Origin: Acidimicrobiia bacterium
Lineage (GTDB): Bacteria > Actinomycetota > Acidimicrobiia > Spongiisociales > ZC4RG35
Length of the DNA stretch: 64,000 bases
Direction: 5' to 3'
Assembly (NCBI GenBank): GCA_041748855.1
Contig: JBGTCK010000051.1
Coordinates: 8,525 to 72,524, forward strand
The notes below the pieces were generated by a model, which was given only the letters and a program-made list of their open reading frames with translations, ran no database searches and had not been told where the DNA came from. A program made the position numbers and the translations under genes. Shown here one piece after another: positions 9,988 through 55,822 of this stretch. The number at the start of each line of letters is the position of its first letter. Position 1 is the first letter of the stretch.

Positions 9988-11159
9988 GCACTATCCGGCT
10001 CGTTGAAGGAGACGGAGAGAACGCCGTTATCCAGCTTGGCCCGCGTCACCTCGCGCCGATGCAAAGCGTCGGGCAGCACAAATGAGCGCCGATAGGGCCC
10101 GAGCTGTACGAACAGCTCGTTTCCCTTGCGGTAAACGTCGAGGTCGGCCTTTTCCGCAAAGGGCACGTCCAGCTCCATGGTCACACCAGCCGAGCCCTCG
10201 ACAATCCTGAAGGGACTTGTGGCATGGAAGTCGGCGATCGGATCAGATTCTCCGTAGAGTTCCTGTGCCAACCGACGAAGACGGTCCAGGCCGATCATCT
10301 CATCGTCGAACAACCGCACCCGGAGTCGGGGCACATCGGCAAAGGCCTCGTCGACCACGTCGAGATGCCCCTTCTGGATAGATCTCCAGCGATCGAAATA
10401 GGGGTCGGTGACGTCGTCGGGGAGCACACGGTTCACCACCACACCGTCCACCCCGTAGCCGAAAAGGCCCAGGTAGCTATAGGTGCGCCGGGCCTCATCG
10501 ATCACCATTTTCTCGGGGTTGACCACCAGGCGCGCCGAGGTGATCTCGGGCGAGCTCATCAGCTCCTTGACCCCCTCGATCGAGTCGAAAACCGATTGGG
10601 CAGCGCCAAAGACCTCGTCGCGGGGCAGTGGCAGATCGGTCATCCTGGAGAGAAGCGGGCGGGCGGCCTTCATCAGCTTCCGTTCGGTTGGCATCACCCT
10701 TTCGAAATACCAGGAGAGAACTTCGGGCAGGGAGAGGAGGCGGAGCGTTTCTGCGGTAGGGGCGCAGTCGACCACCACCACGTCGTAGTCCCCGGACCGA
10801 GCGTGCTCGTTGACCTCGATCAGAGCAAACAGCTCGTCCATCCCGGGAAATATCAAGAACTCCTCGGACTCGATGCCGCCCGCCCCACCCCAGTCGAGCA
10901 CATCCATGAGCTGGCGCCTGATCGATCCCCAGTACTTATCGAGCTGACGCTGGGTATCGATCTGCTGTCCCTGGAGATTGGGGGCGATATCGGTGGGATC
11001 GCTTCCCAGACCCACCATAAGGGCGTCGGATAAGGAGTGCGCGGGATCGGTGGAGGTGACCATGGTCCGATAGCCGGCGTCGGCAGCGGCCAGGGCGGTG
11101 GCCGCAGCCACCGTTGTCTTGCCCACGCCCCCCTTTCCGGTGACGAGGATGATCCTCAT
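9984..11159 (-). CDS. ArsA/Get3-family P-loop ATPase with C-terminal HSP20-like domain
   Basis: 391 aa with P-loop GKGGVGKTT and ArsA/Get3 signature STDPAHSLSDAL. The C-terminal beta-sandwich-like segment (VTMELDVPFAEKADLDVYRKGNELFV...LDNGVLSVSF) resembles alpha-crystallin/ArsA_HSP20. Confidence 0.85.
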   Translation of the reverse strand: MRIILVTGKGGVGKTTVAAATALAAADAGYRTMVTSTDPAHSLSDALMVGLGSDPTDIAPNLQGQQIDTQRQLDKYWGSIRRQLMDVLDWGGAGGIESEEFLIFPGMDELFALIEVNEHARSGDYDVVVVDCAPTAETLRLLSLPEVLSWYFERVMPTERKLMKAARPLLSRMTDLPLPRDEVFGAAQSVFDSIEGVKELMSSPEITSARLVVNPEKMVIDEARRTYSYLGLFGYGVDGVVVNRVLPDDVTDPYFDRWRSIQKGHLDVVDEAFADVPRLRVRLFDDEMIGLDRLRRLAQELYGESDPIADFHATSPFRIVEGSAGVTMELDVPFAEKADLDVYRKGNELFVQLGPYRRSFVLPDALHRREVTRAKLDNGVLSVSFNEPDSA

Positions 11160-11596
11160 TCAGCCTGCTCGGAGACCCTCTTACGCAGACCCTTGAGGGC
11201 CGTTGTCACGATCTGGCGCTCTGCCTGGCTGCGAATGAACCCGGGGATCTTGAAGTTGGGCTCGACGCTCAGGGCATAGACCACTTCGACGCCTTGCTCG
11301 GTTTCGTTGAACGTGTACGAGCCCTCGAGCATTTTCACGTCTCCGCTCTCTTCGGCCGTCCAACTCAGGGAATGCGGCCGGGCGTGTGTGTAGCGCAGGA
11401 CGTACTCGATCTCCTTGATGAAGCCGTCAATGACGAATCGGGCACGGGTTACGTTCCCCTTGTCGTCGGTTTCCAGAACCTCGACCTCCTTGATCCCTGT
11501 CGCCCACTCCGGGTAACCGGCGATGTCGGCCACGGTGTCGTAAAGGTCGGTCGCAGCTGCGTCTATTTCCAGCGTTTGAAAGGTGCCTTCACTCAT
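11156..11596 (-). CDS. SRPBCC (polyketide cyclase/dehydrase-like) family protein
   Basis: 146 aa with the pattern typical of the SRPBCC fold (DLYDTVADIAGYPEW...). First gene of the ArsA operon. Confidence 0.75.
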   Translation of the reverse strand: MSEGTFQTLEIDAAATDLYDTVADIAGYPEWATGIKEVEVLETDDKGNVTRARFVIDGFIKEIEYVLRYTHARPHSLSWTAEESGDVKMLEGSYTFNETEQGVEVVYALSVEPNFKIPGFIRSQAERQIVTTALKGLRKRVSEQAE

Positions 11597-11638
11597 GTCG
11601 TCGCAGGTGAGGTTAGCGCCCGGCCGGACCTAGAACTT

Positions 11639-11800
11639 AGTGGCCCGTCGCTCAAATGCTGGCGGCGTTTCTCCGGCCCTCGAGGCCCCTGGCTGCGTCG
11701 AGGTGCTCGCCGCACTCCCGGGCTGCGACTGCGCGCTTCTCCTGCCAGTTGACCTCGATGACTCGGGGCTACGCTCGCCCTATTTGACCGACAGACCACT
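11639..11800 (-). mobile_element. MITE-like element, copy 3 (inverted relative to copies 1 and 2)
   Basis: 162 bp, alignable end to end by eye with 53737..53900 and 47289..47515 in reverse complement. Terminal inverted repeats are AGTGGTCTGTCGGTCAAATA and AGTGGCCCGTCGCTCAAATG (each end read inward, 5' to 3'). Strand label is an arbitrary polarity. Confidence 0.6.
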
Positions 11801-12556
11801 CAGATCAAGCCGATAGGCACGGCCGGTCGCCCGGAAGTAGCCGACGTTGACACACGACGTCGCTCCGATCCGCCACCGTGATGCCTGGGGCTGGTGAACA
11901 TCGCCGTAGAGATGCAATCCGGGTCTGACACTGCGGATGTAGTCGAGGATTGGTTGTGAGCTGCGCTCTTTGCGCCCGGTGATCACATCTGTCTCCAAGG
12001 GGCCGAGGGCCGGTGCGACATGGGTGCACAGCACGTCGACCTCACCAATCGAGTCGAGGGTCTCCCGCATCTCGTCGTCAGAGATCTCGCCCGGAGCCTG
12101 CATCGGGGTCGCCACTCCCCCGCCAGCGAACCCGAAGCTGACCCCCTCGATTTCGACCCTTCTTCCGTGCACGTACTCGAATCCAGGAGGGAGAGATTCG
12201 GCAAGGCTGGCGGGTCTGTCCACGTTCCCGTGGATCACATAGCCTGACGCATTCCCCAACGCCGCCGACAGCAGTCCATATTGATCAGCAATAGCTCTCT
12301 CGATGCCCCGGCGCGCCTCGTCCGGGTCACCCGGGCGGGTTTGCCACATCGTCCGCATCCTTTCGAAGTCGCCTTCGCCCCGGGCGCGCGCTGCGTCCCG
12401 GGCGAACTCGATGCCAAGTGCGGCGGCTACCGCCCCTTCACCGGTCCTGTAGTCGGTGAGGTTGGCTAGGTCGCCGAGTATGAGCAGCGTCTCGCCAGTG
12501 GAGGCGACAGAGGCCAGGGCGTCAAAGGCACCGTGGACATCGGAGACGACGAGCAT
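11780..12556 (-). CDS. metallophosphoesterase
   Basis: Start placed at the internal ATG giving MLVVSDVHGAFDAL (the DxH motif at the N-terminus), which overlaps the upstream stop (TGATG). GDLANL and GNVD motifs are present. The last 6 codons and the stop lie inside MITE copy 3. Confidence 0.8.
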   Translation of the reverse strand: MLVVSDVHGAFDALASVASTGETLLILGDLANLTDYRTGEGAVAAALGIEFARDAARARGEGDFERMRTMWQTRPGDPDEARRGIERAIADQYGLLSAALGNASGYVIHGNVDRPASLAESLPPGFEYVHGRRVEIEGVSFGFAGGGVATPMQAPGEISDDEMRETLDSIGEVDVLCTHVAPALGPLETDVITGRKERSSQPILDYIRSVRPGLHLYGDVHQPQASRWRIGATSCVNVGYFRATGRAYRLDLSGLSVK

Positions 12557-12852
12557 CAGGCGCCGGCATCCGTCCCAGTGGCGTACCTGACCCAGAGCAC
12601 ACTGAGGAAGGCCGCTACCAGGGCGGCAACCAGAGCAATGGGCCAGCTCCATCCGAGCGGTGAGAACTCAGCGGCCATACCGCCGATACCGAATCCGAGG
12701 ACACCGGCAACGATCAAGCGCCCCCGTTGTCCGATTCGCACTGCTGGATCGCGATGCTCACGTCCCAGGTTCTCTGCGAGCGTTCCCCCCATCACAATGA
12801 CCAGAAGGGCTACGAACCCGACCGCAAGCGAAATGGCATAGACCACGACCAT
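12556..12852 (-). CDS. small membrane protein, function unknown
   Basis: 98-aa ORF with three hydrophobic helices, translationally coupled to the metallophosphoesterase gene. Confidence 0.5.
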   Translation of the reverse strand: MVVVYAISLAVGFVALLVIVMGGTLAENLGREHRDPAVRIGQRGRLIVAGVLGFGIGGMAAEFSPLGWSWPIALVAALVAAFLSVLWVRYATGTDAGA

Positions 12853-46850: not shown

Positions 46851-46919
46851 CCCGGCAACGCGCAGAAGACCCCTCTCGGGGTCCTCTGCACACTGTGAGT
46901 CGATCTGTAAGCCGGATTC
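46851..46919 (-). repeat. rnpB 3' end plus terminator (direct repeat B, part of the functional gene)
   Basis: 69 nt, 66/69 identical to 43385..43453. Confidence 0.8.
46865..46886 (-). terminator. hairpin immediately 3' of rnpB
   Basis: Minus-strand RNA forms GAGGACCCC-GAGA-GGGGUCUUC: 9 bp including one G-U pair, with a GNRA loop. The same stem would carry a C-A mismatch on the plus-strand RNA. Confidence 0.5.
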
Positions 46920-47267
46920 TGTTACCTGTCGCGCCCGGCAACGCCGGGCCGACACGACGACCATCCATCTAGGCGAACTGTCTCCAGTCCGCTCGAGCGG
47001 CCTACCCGGGATATTCAACGGGCCGTTGATCCCTGCTTGGCCTTGCTCCCGGTGGGGTTTACAAGCTGTCCCGGTCGCCCGGGGCACTGGTGGTCTCTTA
47101 CACCACCTTTTCACCCTTGCCTGTGTCCGAAGACCATCGGCGGTTCATTTTCTGCTGCACTTTCCGTCGGGTTGCCCCGCCTGGGAGTTACCCAGCACCG
47201 TGCCCTGTGGAGTCCGGACTTTCCTCGCCTCCGCTGCGCGGAGCCGCGGCCGTCCAATCGACTCGCT
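46895..47267 (-). ncRNA. rnpB: RNase P RNA, bacterial type A
   Basis: The minus strand reads GCGAGUCGAU...GGAGGCGAGGAAAGUCCGGACUCCACAGGGCA...GGGUAAC...AGUGCAGCAGAAA...CCGCCGAUGG...CAAGGGUGAAAAGGUGGUGUAAGAGACCACC...GGGAGCAAGGCCAAGCAGGG...CCCGGGUAGGCCGCUCGAGC...CUAGAUGGAUGG...ACAGAAUCCGGCUUACAGAUCGACUC. Universally conserved P4/J regions are present. Ends are approximate to within a few nt. Confidence 0.9.
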
Positions 47268-47273
47268 TCCCCA

Positions 47274-47279
47274 ATTCTA
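47274..47279 (-). promoter_or_regulatory. putative -10 box of the rnpB promoter
   Basis: TAGAAT lies 7-8 nt upstream of the inferred 5' end of RNase P RNA. An identical TAGAAT sits 11 nt upstream of tRNA-Val. Confidence 0.4.
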
Positions 47280-47288
47280 CCCGGTTCC

Positions 47289-47515
47289 AGTGGTGGGTCG
47301 GTCGAAAAGGTTGTGTGTGTTTCCGAGTTCTCGGCGTCATCTGGCAAGGAGAAAAGCGCAGCCGCACCCGGACCGTTCGGCGAGCATTTTGGACGCAGCC
47401 AGGGGCAACCCGATGAAATCGGGTTGCCTGGAGTTTGATGCTCAAACTCCCACGAATGGCATCCGCGGCGACGAGGGCCGGAGAGACTCCATCATTACTC
47501 GGGCGACGCACCACT
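47289..47515 (+). mobile_element. MITE-like element, copy 1 (with a 63-nt nested insertion)
   Basis: 227 bp. It aligns with 53737..53900 over its whole length apart from the 63-nt insert at 47406..47468. Ends are AGTGGTGGGTCGGTCGAAAA and TACTCGGGCGACGCACCACT (inverted repeats). Confidence 0.6.
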
Positions 47516-47872
47516 CCGTCCCCCGATAAACCCTCCCACGCCCCCAGCGACTATCGACACAAAGGCGAGCAAGAGGACATTCCAGACTGATATCGACGCC
47601 CCACGGAAACTCGCCAGCAGGATCAGGAGTCCCCCGAGAAGGAGGCCGGCGACCGATCCGTGAAACCGGTTGGAATGCAGCGCCATTCTCCCCGCAATCC
47701 ATCCCCCGACCACGAGTCCCACCAGAAGCCCAATCAGCAGTCCGATGGTGGGGCCGTTGGTCACATCGAACAGAGCCAGTCCACCACCAACTAGAAACCC
47801 GACGAACGTGATCGAAAGGCCCCCGGCCGCCACGCCCATGACGACCGCCTGAACTCTCAATGCAGCGAGCAT
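47495..47872 (-). CDS. glycine-rich small membrane protein
   Basis: 125 aa with four Gly/Leu-rich TM helices. The last 6 codons (SGASPE) and the stop lie within the MITE terminal repeat. Confidence 0.6.
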   Translation of the reverse strand: MLAALRVQAVVMGVAAGGLSITFVGFLVGGGLALFDVTNGPTIGLLIGLLVGLVVGGWIAGRMALHSNRFHGSVAGLLLGGLLILLASFRGASISVWNVLLLAFVSIVAGGVGGFIGGRSGASPE

Positions 47873-53014: not shown

Positions 53015-53722
53015 CTACGCTACGAGGATGCGCCGGCAGTGAACGCAGCGAGGGATGTCGGCTTTGAGGGCTTCGTCTCGCTCCGCAGGAGAAAGCGCCA
53101 TGTTGCAGCCACCGCACACCCCATTCTCGAAGCGCCCGACAGCCACACCCTCTTTGGAGGCGCGCAGGGTCTCGTACATCTCGAGGAGATCGGGATCAAC
53201 CGGCTTGATCGCCTCGAATTTGCGCTCTTCCTTGCGGGCGATCTCGGCATCGATTCGTTTCCAATCTTCCTTGATCGATGCCTCCAGCCGGGCCTTTTCG
53301 GCAACCAGCGCGTCGTGCCTGGCCTGCAGGGAGCCGACTTCCTCCCGGACCGGGTCGACATTGTCGAGGAGCTTCAAGACCCGGCTTTCCATCGCCTCAC
53401 GCTGGCCTCGCAGACTCTCCACTTCGAGCCGCATGTGCTCGGTCTCCCGGGCGGTCATAGATCCGGCAAACAACCTCGTCTCGTGCTCGTTGAGCTTCGA
53501 TTCGAGGATCTCCAGCTCACCCTCCGATTTGTCGAAGTCGAGTTCGAGTGTGCGCAGGGTTGTGCTCGCCTCGGAGATCTCCTTCGCCAGCACCTCGAGC
53601 TCATCGTGGGCGATCTTGTAGGCAGCGAGGTCGGGGAGATTCTGACGTTCCCCGAGCAGGCGATCGATCTGCGAATCCAGATCCTGGACATCGAGGAGGT
53701 CGGCGAGGCTGGTTAGTTCCAT
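53015..53722 (-). CDS. DUF164-type coiled-coil protein with C-terminal C4 zinc ribbon
   Basis: 235 aa with a long coiled coil followed by GVCGGCNMAL...IPRCVHCRRIL. Lies downstream of the Nif3-like gene. Confidence 0.8.
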   Translation of the reverse strand: MELTSLADLLDVQDLDSQIDRLLGERQNLPDLAAYKIAHDELEVLAKEISEASTTLRTLELDFDKSEGELEILESKLNEHETRLFAGSMTARETEHMRLEVESLRGQREAMESRVLKLLDNVDPVREEVGSLQARHDALVAEKARLEASIKEDWKRIDAEIARKEERKFEAIKPVDPDLLEMYETLRASKEGVAVGRFENGVCGGCNMALSPAERDEALKADIPRCVHCRRILVA

Positions 53723-53736
53723 GCGAGAAGCAGGCT

Positions 53737-53900
53737 AGTGGTGTGTCGCTCGAATAGGTTGCGCGTGTCTCCGAGGCATCGGCGTCATCTGGCAAGGAGA
53801 AAAGCACAGTCGCAGCCGGGGAGCTGCGGCGAGCATTTTCGACGCAGCCAGGGGCGACGAGGGCCGGAGAGACGCCATCAATATTCGAGCGGCGCACCAC
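53737..53900 (+). mobile_element. MITE-like element, copy 2 (reference copy)
   Basis: 164 bp. The terminal inverted repeats GTGGTGTGTCGCTCGAATA (left) and GTGGTGCGCCGCTCGAATA (reverse complement of the right end) match at 17/19 positions. It fills most of the Nif3-DUF164 spacer and ends 14 nt from the DUF164 start codon. Confidence 0.65.
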
Positions 53901-53963
53901 CGGTGGTGTGTTGAGGGCTTTCGGCCGGTCGGTGCACGAACCGGTTGGATGGTGGGAGCCCGG

Positions 53964-54737
53964 TCAACCCCAGGTCTCGGGGTCGACCTCGGTGAAGTCG
54001 ATGACCTCGACATCGGCAACGGTCGAGGCGAGGGCGACAAGGCCCGGCATACCGGGGCGTTCGGTAGCGACATGGCCAGGATCGACCACAGCCAGGCCCA
54101 GGTCGAGGGCCCGGACCGCTCGGTGGTGGGAGACGTCGCCGGTGACGAGCCCGTCCGCCACACGCGAGGCTTGGTCGATGAGGTCCGAACCCGAGCCGGG
54201 CACCACCGCCACCCTCTCCAACATCCTCTCCCGGTCTCCGGAAACACGGAGGCCGGCAATCCCGAAGGCATCGGTGGCCATTGCATCGAGAACTCCGAGC
54301 TTCGCGTCGAAGGTACCCACCCGGCCAATCGGAGGGAAGCCCTCTTCCTCATCATTTCCAAAAGGTTCGATATCACGAAGTTTGAAGACAGCCGCCAGTG
54401 CTTCGGCAGTGCCGCCCGGGGCAGCGTCGAAGTCGGTGTGGGTAACCAGAAGCGCGGCCCCGGACTGAATTAAGCGCAGCGCCCGGGAGGCGGGAGACCG
54501 GCCGTCCACAATTCGGTTGATCGGCTCGAAGAGCAGGGGGTGGTACGTGATCAGCAGGTCGACGGGGTCTGCCTCGACAGCAGCCACCACCTGTTCGGTC
54601 ACCTCATGGCAGACACCCAGGCGATCTACCCGATGCTTCCGGTCTCCGAGTTGCAGGCCCACCGGATCCCACGAAGCTGCGGTCTCCGGGCGGGTCCTTT
54701 CTGCGAGGTGTTCCGCAATTTCATTGACTGTTGGCAC
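53964..54737 (-). CDS. Nif3-like dinuclear metal centre protein (GTP cyclohydrolase 1 type 2 family)
   Basis: Start placed at a GTG (VPTVNEIAEHL...). Motifs are WDPVGLQLGD, YHPLLF and HHRAVRALDLGLAVVDPGHVATE. Confidence 0.85.
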   Translation of the reverse strand: MPTVNEIAEHLAERTRPETAASWDPVGLQLGDRKHRVDRLGVCHEVTEQVVAAVEADPVDLLITYHPLLFEPINRIVDGRSPASRALRLIQSGAALLVTHTDFDAAPGGTAEALAAVFKLRDIEPFGNDEEEGFPPIGRVGTFDAKLGVLDAMATDAFGIAGLRVSGDRERMLERVAVVPGSGSDLIDQASRVADGLVTGDVSHHRAVRALDLGLAVVDPGHVATERPGMPGLVALASTVADVEVIDFTEVDPETWG

Positions 54738-54778
54738 CAGGGCAGGGTAACCCAAAAAACACGGGATACGCTCACGCC

Positions 54779-55822
54779 ATGGATACGACCGCAGCAAACT
54801 CCTGGCAACCCCCGTCTCGATGGTTGTCCTTGAGGGTGATCGACTCTCATGCGGCTGGTGAGCCGTTTCGGGTGGTGACCGACGGACTCCCGGAGATCCC
54901 GGGGACCACAGTCCTCGACCGTCGTCGGTTCGCGACAGAGCACCTCGATCACCTGCGCAAGGGGCTGATGTGGGAGCCGCGGGGGCACCGCGATATGTAC
55001 GGGGGGTGGATTGGCGATGCGGTCGAACCCGATTCCGACTTCTCCATACTGTTCACCCACAACGAGGGGTTCTCGACGATGTGCGGCCACGGCATTCTCG
55101 CGGTCACCAAGGTTGTCCTCGACACCGGCATGGTCAACCGTTCAGTCCCGCAAACGACCTTGCGCATCGACACCCCGGCCGGGCAGGTGACCAGCGTGGC
55201 CGACCACGATGCGGACGGGATGGTTGAACGAGTCCGTTTCCGCAACGTCGCCTCCTACGTCGATAGCCTCGACGAAACCATCGAGGTCAGCGGAATCGGT
55301 GAGGTGAGGTACGACCTGGCTTTCGGCGGGGCCTTCTACGCATATGTCGACGCCCTGTCGTTGGGAGTCCGCTGGCCCCCCGATGAAAGCGGATCGTTGG
55401 TCGAACTCGGCCGGCGTATCAAGAAAGCGGTGGTGGCTAGCCGCGCGATTACCCATCCGGTCCACGCTGAGCTCGGGTTCCTCTACGGAGTTATCTTCAG
55501 CGGGCCGGCCGTCGATCCGGCGAACCATCGGCGAAACGTTTGTGTCTTCGCCGACGGCGAGGTCGACCGCTCCCCTACCGGGACCGGCGTCTCCGGCCAT
55601 ATCGCTATCGAGTCCGCCCGGGAAAACATGCAGCCCGGGGACCGCCTGGTGGTGGAGAGCATCGTCGGCAGCGAGTTCGCCGGCACCCTCGCGGAGCTGA
55701 CTCGAATTGGAAAGGTCGAGGCGGTCATCCCCGAAATCGAAGGCATGGCACACATCACCGGCAGGTCCGAGTTCTGGTTCGACCCCGCAGACAGCCTCAG
55801 CCCGGGATTTTTGCTTCGCTGA
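54779..55822 (+). CDS. proline racemase superfamily enzyme, Cys/Thr type (predicted trans-3-hydroxy-L-proline dehydratase-like)
   Basis: ATG start at 54779. VIDSHAAGEP is present. The first catalytic residue is in STMCGHG, and the second catalytic position reads DRSPTGTG (Thr instead of Cys). Confidence 0.75.
   Translation: MDTTAANSWQPPSRWLSLRVIDSHAAGEPFRVVTDGLPEIPGTTVLDRRRFATEHLDHLRKGLMWEPRGHRDMYGGWIGDAVEPDSDFSILFTHNEGFSTMCGHGILAVTKVVLDTGMVNRSVPQTTLRIDTPAGQVTSVADHDADGMVERVRFRNVASYVDSLDETIEVSGIGEVRYDLAFGGAFYAYVDALSLGVRWPPDESGSLVELGRRIKKAVVASRAITHPVHAELGFLYGVIFSGPAVDPANHRRNVCVFADGEVDRSPTGTGVSGHIAIESARENMQPGDRLVVESIVGSEFAGTLAELTRIGKVEAVIPEIEGMAHITGRSEFWFDPADSLSPGFLLR

What the first reader, a model, noticed from the sequence alone, without database searches (positions are those of the whole stretch)
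53737..53900. Unannotated ~164-bp MITE-like element with ~19-bp terminal inverted repeats, three copies in 64 kb
Three non-coding segments align over their whole length by eye: 53737..53900, 47289..47515 (same orientation, with an extra 63 nt) and 11639..11800 (reverse complement). Conserved blocks include CTGGCAAGGAGAAAAGC, GGCGAGCA, GACGCAGCCAGGGG and GAGGGCCGGAGA.

Each copy is bounded by inverted repeats. In copy 2 these are GTGGTGTGTCGCTCGAATA and the reverse complement of TATTCGAGCGGCGCACCAC, matching at 17/19 positions. The other copies match at 15/19 and 13/19.

Indels between copies break every reading frame, and copy orientation is independent of the flanking genes. This argues against a leader, riboswitch or protein-coding repeat and for a non-autonomous transposable element. 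I could not define a consistent target-site duplication, and no parent IS lies in the window.
Basis: seen in the sequence. Interest (0 to 1): 0.65.

Follow-up and report, generated by a model that had tools for sequence, protein, structure and literature searches.

The report
IS630-type MITE family in Acidimicrobiia
The three look-alike segments are copies of an undescribed 160-base "jumping" DNA element that cannot move on its own, is moved by IS630-type transposases in uncultured soil Acidimicrobiia, and carries an oddly well-conserved, strand-specific folded core of unknown role.

Summary
The window has three copies (53738-53900 +, 47290-47514 + with a nested 63-nt insert, 11640-11799 -). 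The 2.55-Mb assembly has 16 full copies and about 5 diverged ones.

The MITE reading is supported and can now be specified:
- The ends are GTGG...CCAC.
This is the IS630/Tc1-mariner signature.
- Thirteen of the genome's copies, among them all three in the window, have empty orthologous sites in sister species.
- One sister site carries a classic excision footprint, TA-GTG/CCAC-TA.
- Copy number within the genus runs from 0 to about 40 and tracks the presence of IS630-family transposase genes.
- In another Acidimicrobiia genome, a 1171-bp IS630-family IS has termini matching that genome's MITE subfamily. The cognate IS of the window's own subfamily was not found.

Orientation relative to genes is random, and resident copies decay neutrally, so this is not a cis-regulatory RNA.

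One feature is unusual. Across subfamilies with different terminal repeats, the internal ~100 nt is the best-conserved part. It is not IS-derived, it is non-palindromic (GGACG repeats), and it sits in a rod-shaped fold that covaries strongly. The fold keeps G·U pairs only on one strand, in the variants that multiplied. No function is shown for it.

Verdict: a new member of a known kind, of moderate interest.

The parts
53738..53900 (+). MITE copy 1 (163 nt, GTGG...CCAC). It lies antisense between the NIF3/DUF34 gene (53964-54797, -) and a CT398-like zinc-ribbon gene (53015-53722, -).
   Evidence: Empty orthologous sites in G004, G005, G007, G008 and G010. Flanking genes named by Pfam.
53736..53737 (.). 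Left copy of the TA target-site duplication of copy 1. The right copy, at 53901-53902, has decayed to CG.
   Evidence: Empty site GGC-TA-GTGGTGTGTGGG in G004 against the filled site. Flank logo of 109 copies: C T A | GTGG..CCAC | T A R.
53903..53911 (+). GTGGTGTGT just right of copy 1. It matches the first 9 nt of the element and is also present at the 'empty' sites of sister species. It is probably a remnant of an older insertion at the same TA (inference).
   Evidence: Analogous end-like remnants at other 'empty' sites.
53789..53851 (+). Conserved internal module of copy 1: stem CTGGC/GCCAG enclosing AAGGAG..., an apical covarying hairpin, and ...CGACGCA.
   Evidence: It is the best-conserved part across subfamilies with different terminal repeats.
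47290..47514 (+). MITE copy 2 (225 nt). Its left end lies 24 nt upstream of the 5' end of the RNase P RNA gene (46892-47265, -).
   Evidence: Empty sites GGTTC-TA-CGTCC in G007 and G005 against GGTTC-CA[GTGG..CCAC]TC-CGTCC here.
47404..47466 (+). Nested 63-nt double-hairpin insert inside copy 2. It is a different small repeat. Three further CM matches of about 226 nt at other loci (two in G001, one in G007) may be the same composite.
   Evidence: alignment gap. (the 226-nt matches; their sequences were not read, though BLAST splits them the same way). The same hairpin module replaces the left arm of a G004 copy (row G004y).
11640..11799 (-). MITE copy 3 (160 nt). It lies sense between two minus-strand genes (11780-12652 and 11156-11596). 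TA at 11638-11639.
   Evidence: Empty sites in G004 and G005.
11780..11799 (-). The last six codons (SGLSVK) and the TAG stop of ORF 11780-12652 are encoded by the left end of copy 3.
   Evidence: read directly from the sequence.
47495..47514 (-). The last six codons (SGASPE) and the TAA stop of ORF 47495-47872 are encoded by the right end of copy 2.

Best explanation
[quoted passage not shown] It encodes nothing.

How it moves. It is moved in trans by IS630-family (HTH + DDE_3) transposases, which recognise its ~28-nt terminal inverted repeats (GTGGYSYGTCG...). It inserts by cut-and-paste into a TA dinucleotide, preferably within CTAG or CTAA, and duplicates the TA.

Where it lands. CTAG is rare in these genomes and often overlaps stop codons, so copies accumulate at gene ends. 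The element's terminal G rebuilds TAG. When the TA decays, the neighbouring ORF reads a few codons into the element.

What happens to copies. Resident copies then decay neutrally, or lose the top of the hairpin by symmetric deletion, giving 63-78-nt forms.

Shown here: multi-copy status, the TA duplication, empty sites, one excision footprint, co-occurrence with IS630 transposases, and a cognate IS for a sister subfamily.

Inferred: that the window's own subfamily uses such a transposase, since none is present in this 81%-complete assembly. Also inferred is that the conserved, strand-polar internal module helps the element spread in a single-stranded form (RNA or DNA).
For: Copy number and fold:
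- 16 full copies and about 5 diverged ones in G000.
- The whole unit folds as a rod hairpin.

Distribution and transposase:
- Same-genus genomes hold 0 to about 40 CM matches.
- DDE_3 genes occur in G001, G003, G004, G005, G007, G026 and G027, all of which carry the MITE. They are absent from the copy-free G006, G010 and G011.

Insertion polymorphism and duplication:
- Thirteen G000 copies have contiguous empty sites in G004, G005 or G007.
- Targets CTAG, CTAA and CTAC show that the G belongs to the element and that only TA is duplicated.
- Flank logo of 109 copies: C90 T75 A99 | GTGG..CCAC | T87 A83 G68/A31.
- Footprint GGAC-TA-GTG CCAC-TA-AATC in G004, where G005 has GGAG-TA-ATTC and G000 has the full element.

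Cognate IS:
- G322 carries a 1171-bp IS flanked by C|TA. Its termini match the G322 MITE termini at 24/29 and about 19/26 positions.
- Its ORFs hit NF033545 'IS630 family transposase' at 145 bits. A G003 homologue scores 232 bits.

No role as a cis-regulatory RNA:
- Orientation is random relative to genes.
- Rare pair variants are G·U 25 against A·C 23.
Against: - No IS630-family gene is present in G000 itself, nor in G008 or G012, which carry copies.
- No full-length IS with the window subfamily's termini (TAGTGGYCYGTCGCT.AAATAG) was found in any locus examined.
- The IS630 elements of the same genus end in TAGTGC... and resemble the MITE termini only loosely.
- The internal ~100 nt is not derived from those ISs.
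- A pure dsDNA cut-and-paste model does not explain why variants that spread keep G·U but never A·C pairs: 13 column-types against 1.
- Only one clean footprint was seen.
Confidence: 0.88

Rival explanations
1. It is primarily a structured non-coding RNA gene family. The conserved core is a working RNA, for example a decoy or regulator that binds a protein or the ribosome through its GGA-rich loops. In this reading the terminal repeats merely disperse it, and each copy has a cellular function.
For: - 48 of 55 pairs show double changes. 90.5% of cells are paired against 70.5% in shuffles. The covariation score is 0.50 against 0.08-0.11 for slid partners.
- The + strand folds 8-36 kcal/mol better than the - strand in all 13 elements folded, which cover about ten subfamilies.
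- The internal module is more conserved than the termini and is non-palindromic.
- Variants shared by 4 or more copies are G·U in 13 column-types and A·C in 1.
Against: - Orientation relative to genes is random.
- No conserved promoter or terminator was seen.
- Rare variants break and keep pairs equally, and their density is not significantly lower in the core (p = 0.20).
- Congeneric species have no copies at all.
- Short forms lacking the core sit at several loci, one of them an independent insertion.
- No Rfam family matches even at E <= 5.
- CsrA is absent from carriers.
Confidence: 0.1
2. It is an IS5-family (IS427/ISL2-like) MITE that duplicates the tetranucleotide CTAG. In this reading the element proper is TGG...CCA.
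For: - Most copies read CTAGTGG...CCACTAG.
- This string is equally produced by a 4-bp CTAG duplication.
- CTAG is the commonest target.
Against: - At CTAA and CTAC targets the filled site still has G next to TGG on the left, so the G comes with the element.
- The footprint is TA-GTG CCAC-TA.
- The IS with matching termini is of the IS630 family.
- IS5-family genes were not searched for.
Confidence: 0.04
3. It is a REP/BIME-like or IS200/IS605-derived palindromic element (PATE), moved as single-stranded DNA by a Y1 HUH transposase (RAYT/TnpA) without target duplication.
For: - The fold is a hairpin over the whole length.
- Strand-specific pairing is preserved, as expected for ssDNA transposition.
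Against: - A TA duplication is demonstrated by empty/filled pairs and by a footprint.
- The flanks are symmetric, rather than showing a one-sided target motif.
- The termini match an IS630 IS.
- RAYT/TnpA genes were not searched for.
Confidence: 0.02

Closest known systems
RUP (repeat unit of pneumococcus), 107 bp, proposed to be mobilised by IS630-Spn1
   Same: - Small and non-coding, with terminal repeats similar to those of an IS630-family IS.
- Inserts at TA.
- Many intergenic copies.
- Mobilisation is inferred from sequence only (PMC2229807).
   Different: - No sequence similarity, and a different phylum.
- The present element is longer (160 nt) and G+C-rich.
- It is a complete rod hairpin.
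- Its internal module is conserved across subfamilies with different termini.
Correia elements (CREE/NEMIS) of Neisseria
   Same: - About 100-155 bp with a TA duplication.
- Long hairpin when transcribed.
- Conserved internal functional site (an IHF site).
- Effects on neighbouring genes (PMC2229807).
   Different: - Correia elements are A+T-rich, and their parent transposase is unknown.
- Here the internal conserved part is a purine-rich, strand-polar module, not a recognisable IHF site.
- RNA processing was not tested.
MITEEc1 / ERIC-type IS630-related MITEs of enterobacteria
   Same: - Imperfect palindromes of about 127 bp.
- MITEEc1 is filed under IS630 in ISfinder, as cited in bioRxiv 10.1101/2024.01.18.576219.
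- Full-length hairpin RNA.
   Different: - No sequence similarity.
- A different host clade.
- A different target context (CTAR).
Stowaway MITEs / Tc1-mariner excision footprints of eukaryotes
   Same: - TA duplication.
- Mobilisation in trans by a DDE transposase of the IS630-Tc1-mariner group.
- A footprint made of the terminal nucleotides of the element between two TAs. This comparison rests on my own knowledge.
   Different: - The host is bacterial.
- Only one footprint was observed, and the repair pathway was not examined.

Membership tests
Bacterial MITE | Small (<300 bp) and non-coding. | tested here: met
   Copies are 160-164 nt. Indels between copies break all frames.
Bacterial MITE | Terminal inverted repeats. 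| tested here: met
   GTGGTSYGTCG...CGACRSRCCAC. Helix 1 is 94.5% paired across 64 elements.
Bacterial MITE | Target-site duplication shown by filled versus empty sites. | tested here: met
   TA is single at empty sites and double, or decayed, at filled sites.
Bacterial MITE | Many dispersed copies with insertion polymorphism between relatives. | tested here: met
   16 full copies here and 0 to about 40 matches in congeners. Thirteen copies have empty orthologous sites.
Bacterial MITE | An autonomous IS with matching termini. | tested here: inconclusive
   Met for the G322 subfamily: a 1171-bp IS630 IS with 24/29 and about 19/26 matching positions. Not met for the window's own subfamily.
IS630/Tc1-mariner-mobilised element | TA duplication, often within CTAG. 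| tested here: met
IS630/Tc1-mariner-mobilised element | An IS630-family transposase in the same genomes. | tested here: inconclusive
   It co-occurs in 7 carriers and is absent from the 3 copy-free congeners. It is also absent from G000, G008, G012, G062, G036 and G155, which carry copies. Family identity was confirmed with NF033545.
IS630/Tc1-mariner-mobilised element | An excision footprint of element termini between two TAs. | tested here: met
   One case: G004 reads TA-GTG CCAC-TA at the site of the G000 C80 copy.
IS630/Tc1-mariner-mobilised element | Transposase-dependent mobility demonstrated by experiment. | not testable with these tools
   This needs a bench mobilisation assay.
Any Rfam RNA family (including 6S RNA and SRP RNA, which are also rod-shaped) | A covariance-model match. 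| tested here: not met
   No match at gathering score in the window. None at E <= 5 on the element and four diverged relatives, apart from a chance miRNA hit.
CsrA/Rsm-sponge RNAs | Multiple exposed GGA motifs plus a CsrA protein in the host. | tested here: not met
   The GGA-rich loops are present. CsrA (PF02599) is absent from G000-G009, G027 and G029.
REP/RAYT or IS200/IS605 PATE | No target duplication, with a one-sided target motif. | tested here: not met
   A symmetric TA duplication was found. The presence of RAYT genes was not tested.

The most novel reading that the evidence does not exclude
The ~100-nt internal module is a mobile structured nucleic-acid device, not filler.

Its parts are a CUGGC/GCCAG stem, two purine-rich GGACG-repeat strands, and a covarying apical hairpin. 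It is kept while the terminal repeats are swapped to fit different IS630 transposases.

In this reading it acts in single-stranded form of one strand, as RNA or as ssDNA, to promote the element's own propagation. It could do this by presenting the two ends to the transposase as a snap-back hairpin, or by binding a host or transposase factor.

That would make this a MITE superfamily whose success depends on a conserved strand-specific fold, which has not been described for IS630-type MITEs.
Probability: 0.3. Interest if true: 0.7.

Novelty: new member of a known kind. Interest (0 to 1): 0.42.

Why it matters
Annotation. Acidimicrobiia are abundant soil and water bacteria known almost only from MAGs, and their mobile DNA is essentially uncharted. 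This element breaks assemblies, since many copies sit at contig ends. It rewrites the C-termini of neighbouring genes, two of three cases in this window. One copy sits 24 nt upstream of rnpB. Recognising it improves annotation.

Mechanism. The family offers an unusually clean natural data set on how very short MITEs spread:
- Resident copies drift neutrally.
- Only variants that preserve pairing on one strand have multiplied.
- An internal module not derived from the IS outlasts changes of the terminal repeats.

If that reflects a single-stranded intermediate or an RNA cofactor, an old, untested idea about MITE transposition becomes testable with a defined element and transposase pair.

Tried and rejected
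- Rfam. The gathering-score search on the window found only RNase P and a tRNA. E-value mode on the element and four diverged relatives found nothing.
- CsrA-sponge idea. Rejected, because CsrA is absent from carriers.
- Parent IS search by paired termini 0.3-3 kb apart, in all loci and in G000. It gave only noise.
- Termini of 12 DDE_3 loci from relatives. They end in TAGTGC..., not the window subfamily's ends.
- Wide-gap pattern search for a full-length IS.
- Partial BLAST hits that might have been IS ends. All lay at contig ends.
- Phage carriage. 118 or more viral contigs match the loose core pattern, but none of the first 80 matches the covariance model, so these are chance hits.
- Rare-variant depletion in the core. 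The first result (p = 1.5e-5) was an artefact, because those copies had been fetched with an exact pattern covering just those columns. Repeated on 71 copies found with the covariance model, it is not significant (p = 0.20).
- Literature. No paper contains the core sequence words, and none combines Acidimicrobiia with MITEs.
- My gene calls for the orientation statistics are a crude codon-usage caller, not a curated annotation.

Full report
**1. The observation**

The three segments exist as described. They align over their whole length, and copy 2 carries an extra 63 nt. So is the 17/19 terminal repeat, although it belongs to the copy at 53737.

The window lies in an 86-contig, 2.55-Mb, 62% G+C assembly that is 81% complete. 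BLAST and nhmmer find 16 full-length copies, plus about five diverged relatives with other termini.

An exact scan for two conserved blocks over one genome per species returned 112 stretches. Nearly all are in soil Acidimicrobiia MAGs, often with many per genome. Five records carry an 'Acidobacteriota' label that I could not verify, and one Massilia hit looks like chance.

Rfam finds only RNase P RNA (46892-47265, -) and a tRNA in the window.

**2. Anatomy**

The unit is not just bounded by inverted repeats. The whole 164 nt folds into one rod-like hairpin: -99.3 kcal/mol, z = -9.3. The complementary strand folds less well, at -75 kcal/mol. RNAalifold on 15 own copies gives 55 pairs, 16 of them with compensatory changes.

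**3. It is mobile, and the duplication is TA**

A covariance model built from the own copies gives 0 matches in three genomes of the same genus (G006, G010, G011) and up to about 40 in a 1.9-Mb one (G003). Many copies sit at contig ends. Weaker matches occur in other families of the order.

For window copy 1, the two flanking genes (NIF3/DUF34 and a CT398-like zinc-ribbon protein) are adjacent in G004, G005, G007, G008 and G010, with only about 23-37 nt between them.

A composite of the flanks of 14 further copies gave contiguous hits across the junction, that is empty sites, in G004, G005 or G007 for all but one. Flank identity was 83-93%. These genomes nevertheless have their own copies elsewhere.

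Aligning filled and empty sites shows three kinds of target:
- CTAG, at four sites.
- CTAA, at two sites.
- CTAC, at copy 2: GGTTC-TA-CGTCC becomes GGTTC-CA[GTGG...CCAC]TC-CGTCC.

The G next to TGG is present even where the target had no G. So the element is GTGG...CCAC and only TA is duplicated.

The flank logo of 109 distinct copies is C(90) T(75) A(99) | GTGG...CCAC | T(87) A(83) G(68)/A(31).

At the site of the G000 C80 copy, G005 reads GGAG-TA-ATTC (empty). G004 reads GGAC-TA-GTG CCAC-TA-AATC. That is the first three and last four bases of the element between two TAs, which is the kind of footprint left by Tc1/mariner-type excision (a comparison from my own knowledge).

Several other 'empty' sites keep 7-10 nt of an element end, for example TA-GTGGTGTGT at the copy-1 site and CGGACCAC at two sites. 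I read these as remnants of older insertions.

At the copy-1 site, G003 carries an independent 78-nt short form in the opposite orientation. Some TAs are therefore hit repeatedly.

CTAG is strongly under-represented in this genome: 1531 observed against 8858 expected from base composition. This helps explain why copies cluster at gene ends.

**4. Which enzyme**

IS630-family DDE_3 genes (PF13358) are found in G001, G003, G004, G005, G007, G026 and G027, all of which are carriers. They are not found in the copy-free congeners. They are also missing from G000, G008 and G012. Those ISs are flanked by C|TA and begin TAGTGC.... None has the window subfamily's termini.

In G322, a 4.2-Mb assembly of another family with 8 copies of its own subfamily, a 1171-bp IS flanked by C|TA has these termini:
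- TAGTGCCCCGTCACGCAACCTTTGCGCGG
- TAGTGCCTCGTCTTGAAACGTTGGTGG

The G322 MITE ends are:
- TAGTGCCCCGTCACACAACATTTGCCGCG (24/29 matching positions)
- TAGTGCTCCGTCTCAAAACATGGCG (about 19/26 matching positions)

The IS carries HTH and DDE_3 ORFs that match NCBIfam 'IS630 family transposase' above its cut-off. Similarity between the IS and the MITE stops after about 30 nt.

By the correspondence of termini, the MITE + strand is the transposase sense strand.

**5. Not a cis-regulatory RNA**

I used a simple codon-usage gene caller. Of 56 copies with confidently called genes within 400 nt on both sides, 18 are sense and 17 antisense in co-directional gaps, 11 lie between convergent genes, and 10 between divergent genes. 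This mirrors the background of intergenic types.

In the window, copy 1 is antisense to its operon and copy 3 is sense. Copy 2 lies 24 nt upstream of rnpB.

Copies 2 and 3 each supply the last six codons and the stop codon of the neighbouring ORF.

**6. The unusual part**

Diverged relatives from other families and orders of the class were found in two ways: with the covariance model and with a loose core pattern. They share these features:
- All are rods of about 160 nt.
- Most are flanked by TA or a one-base variant of it.
- All begin with GTG.
- Their terminal repeats differ between subfamilies, for example GTGGTGTGTCGCTCAATCAG, GTGCGGTGTCCCGGAAG, GTGGTCGGTCTG and GTGTCCCGAGTCGG.

The best-conserved part is internal. 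A stem CUGGC/GCCAG closes two purine-rich strands and an apical hairpin whose sequence varies but stays paired. The strands are AAGGACGCAGGACGAAG on the 5' side and CGAGGACGAGGACGCA on the 3' side, which are direct repeats, not inverted ones. In the window's subfamily the strands are partly replaced by GAGAAAAGC/GCAUUUUCGAC pairing.

The pattern-based set is biased towards two of these blocks, but the model-based set shows the same picture.

On 64 elements, 90.5% of cells are paired against 70.5% in shuffles. 48 of 55 pairs show double changes. The covariation score is 0.50, against 0.16 for shuffles and 0.08-0.11 with slid partners. That alignment was fitted to the model and contains three stray rows: two reverse-strand matches and one extra weak match.

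The + strand folds 8-36 kcal/mol better than the - strand in all 13 elements folded, which cover about ten subfamilies.

**7. Where selection acts**

Among 71 copies collected without the pattern bias:
- Pair variants seen in 1-2 copies are G·U in 25 cells and A·C in 23. This is the 1:1 ratio expected if resident copies drift.
- Variants shared by four or more copies are G·U in 13 column-types (273 cells) and A·C in one (4 cells).
- The larger, pattern-fetched set gives the same result.
- Rare-variant density is not significantly lower in the core (p = 0.20). An earlier 'significant' dip was an ascertainment artefact.

So individual insertions look functionless. Only lineages that keep the + strand fold have multiplied.

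Short forms of 63-78 nt have lost the top of the rod by symmetric deletions with several different junctions. They still sit at several loci. The core is therefore probably not strictly required for insertion.

**8. What the module is not**

- It matches no Rfam family.
- It is not a CsrA sponge, because CsrA is absent from carriers.
- It was not detectably phage-borne in the 80 viral contigs tested.
- No paper holds its sequence words.

**9. Comparison with known elements**

In kind, this is a bacterial IS630-type MITE like RUP of pneumococcus (terminal repeats like IS630-Spn1, TA targets) and, more loosely, like Correia and ERIC/MITEEc1 elements (PMC2229807; bioRxiv 10.1101/2024.01.18.576219). 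It shares no sequence with them.

It differs in three ways:
- It is G+C-rich.
- It is a full-length covarying rod.
- It keeps a strand-polar internal module that is not IS-derived, across subfamilies with different termini.

**10. Verdict**

The family is undescribed but belongs to a known kind. The open question worth a bench test is why one strand's fold and the GGACG-repeat core are preserved in the lineages that spread.

Noticed in passing
G000 contig C48:14256-14419, outside the window and directly left of the C48 MITE copy: A second, unrelated repeat of about 164 nt with terminal inverted repeats CCGTTGAACAAATGC...GCATTATTCAACGG. It has 10 copies in this genome at 90-96% identity and dozens at 91-97% in G001, G003, G004, G005 and G007. 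It is probably another MITE family. None lies in the window.
   Followed up: partly
window 47404-47466: A 63-nt double-hairpin unit (GCAACCCGAtgaaaTCGGGTTGC, GGAGTTTGAtgcTCAAACTCC) is nested inside MITE copy 2. The same unit replaces the left arm of a MITE in G004 (C123) and adjoins a diverged copy at G000 C62:9100-9262. About 226-nt matches at three other loci of G001 and G007 may be the same composite. It may belong to the 'mosaic hairpin repeat' family noted earlier in this genome.
   Followed up: partly
window 47266-47300: MITE copy 2 begins only 24 nt upstream of the 5' end of the RNase P RNA gene (46892-47265, minus strand). The sister species G005, G007 and G001 have the site empty. The insertion must have displaced or replaced the upstream part of the rnpB promoter in this lineage.
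   Followed up: no
G000 contigs C7:8135-8288, C85:9148-9308, C57:42557-42719: Diverged sister subfamilies in the same genome. They have the same core (CTGGCAAGGACGCAGG...GACGCCGCCAGGGG) but other termini (AGTGTCCTGTCCGG..., GTGCGCCGTCCCG...). An IS630-family IS in G007 (C136) begins CCTAGTGTCCTG, like the first of these.
   Followed up: partly
whole assembly G000: CTAG is about six-fold under-represented: 1531 observed against 8858 expected from base composition.
   Followed up: no
L258 1387-2535 (G322:C3, minus strand): The IS630-family transposase of the cognate IS is split into a 117-aa HTH ORF and a 259-aa DDE ORF. This is either a frameshifted pseudogene or programmed frameshifting.
   Followed up: no
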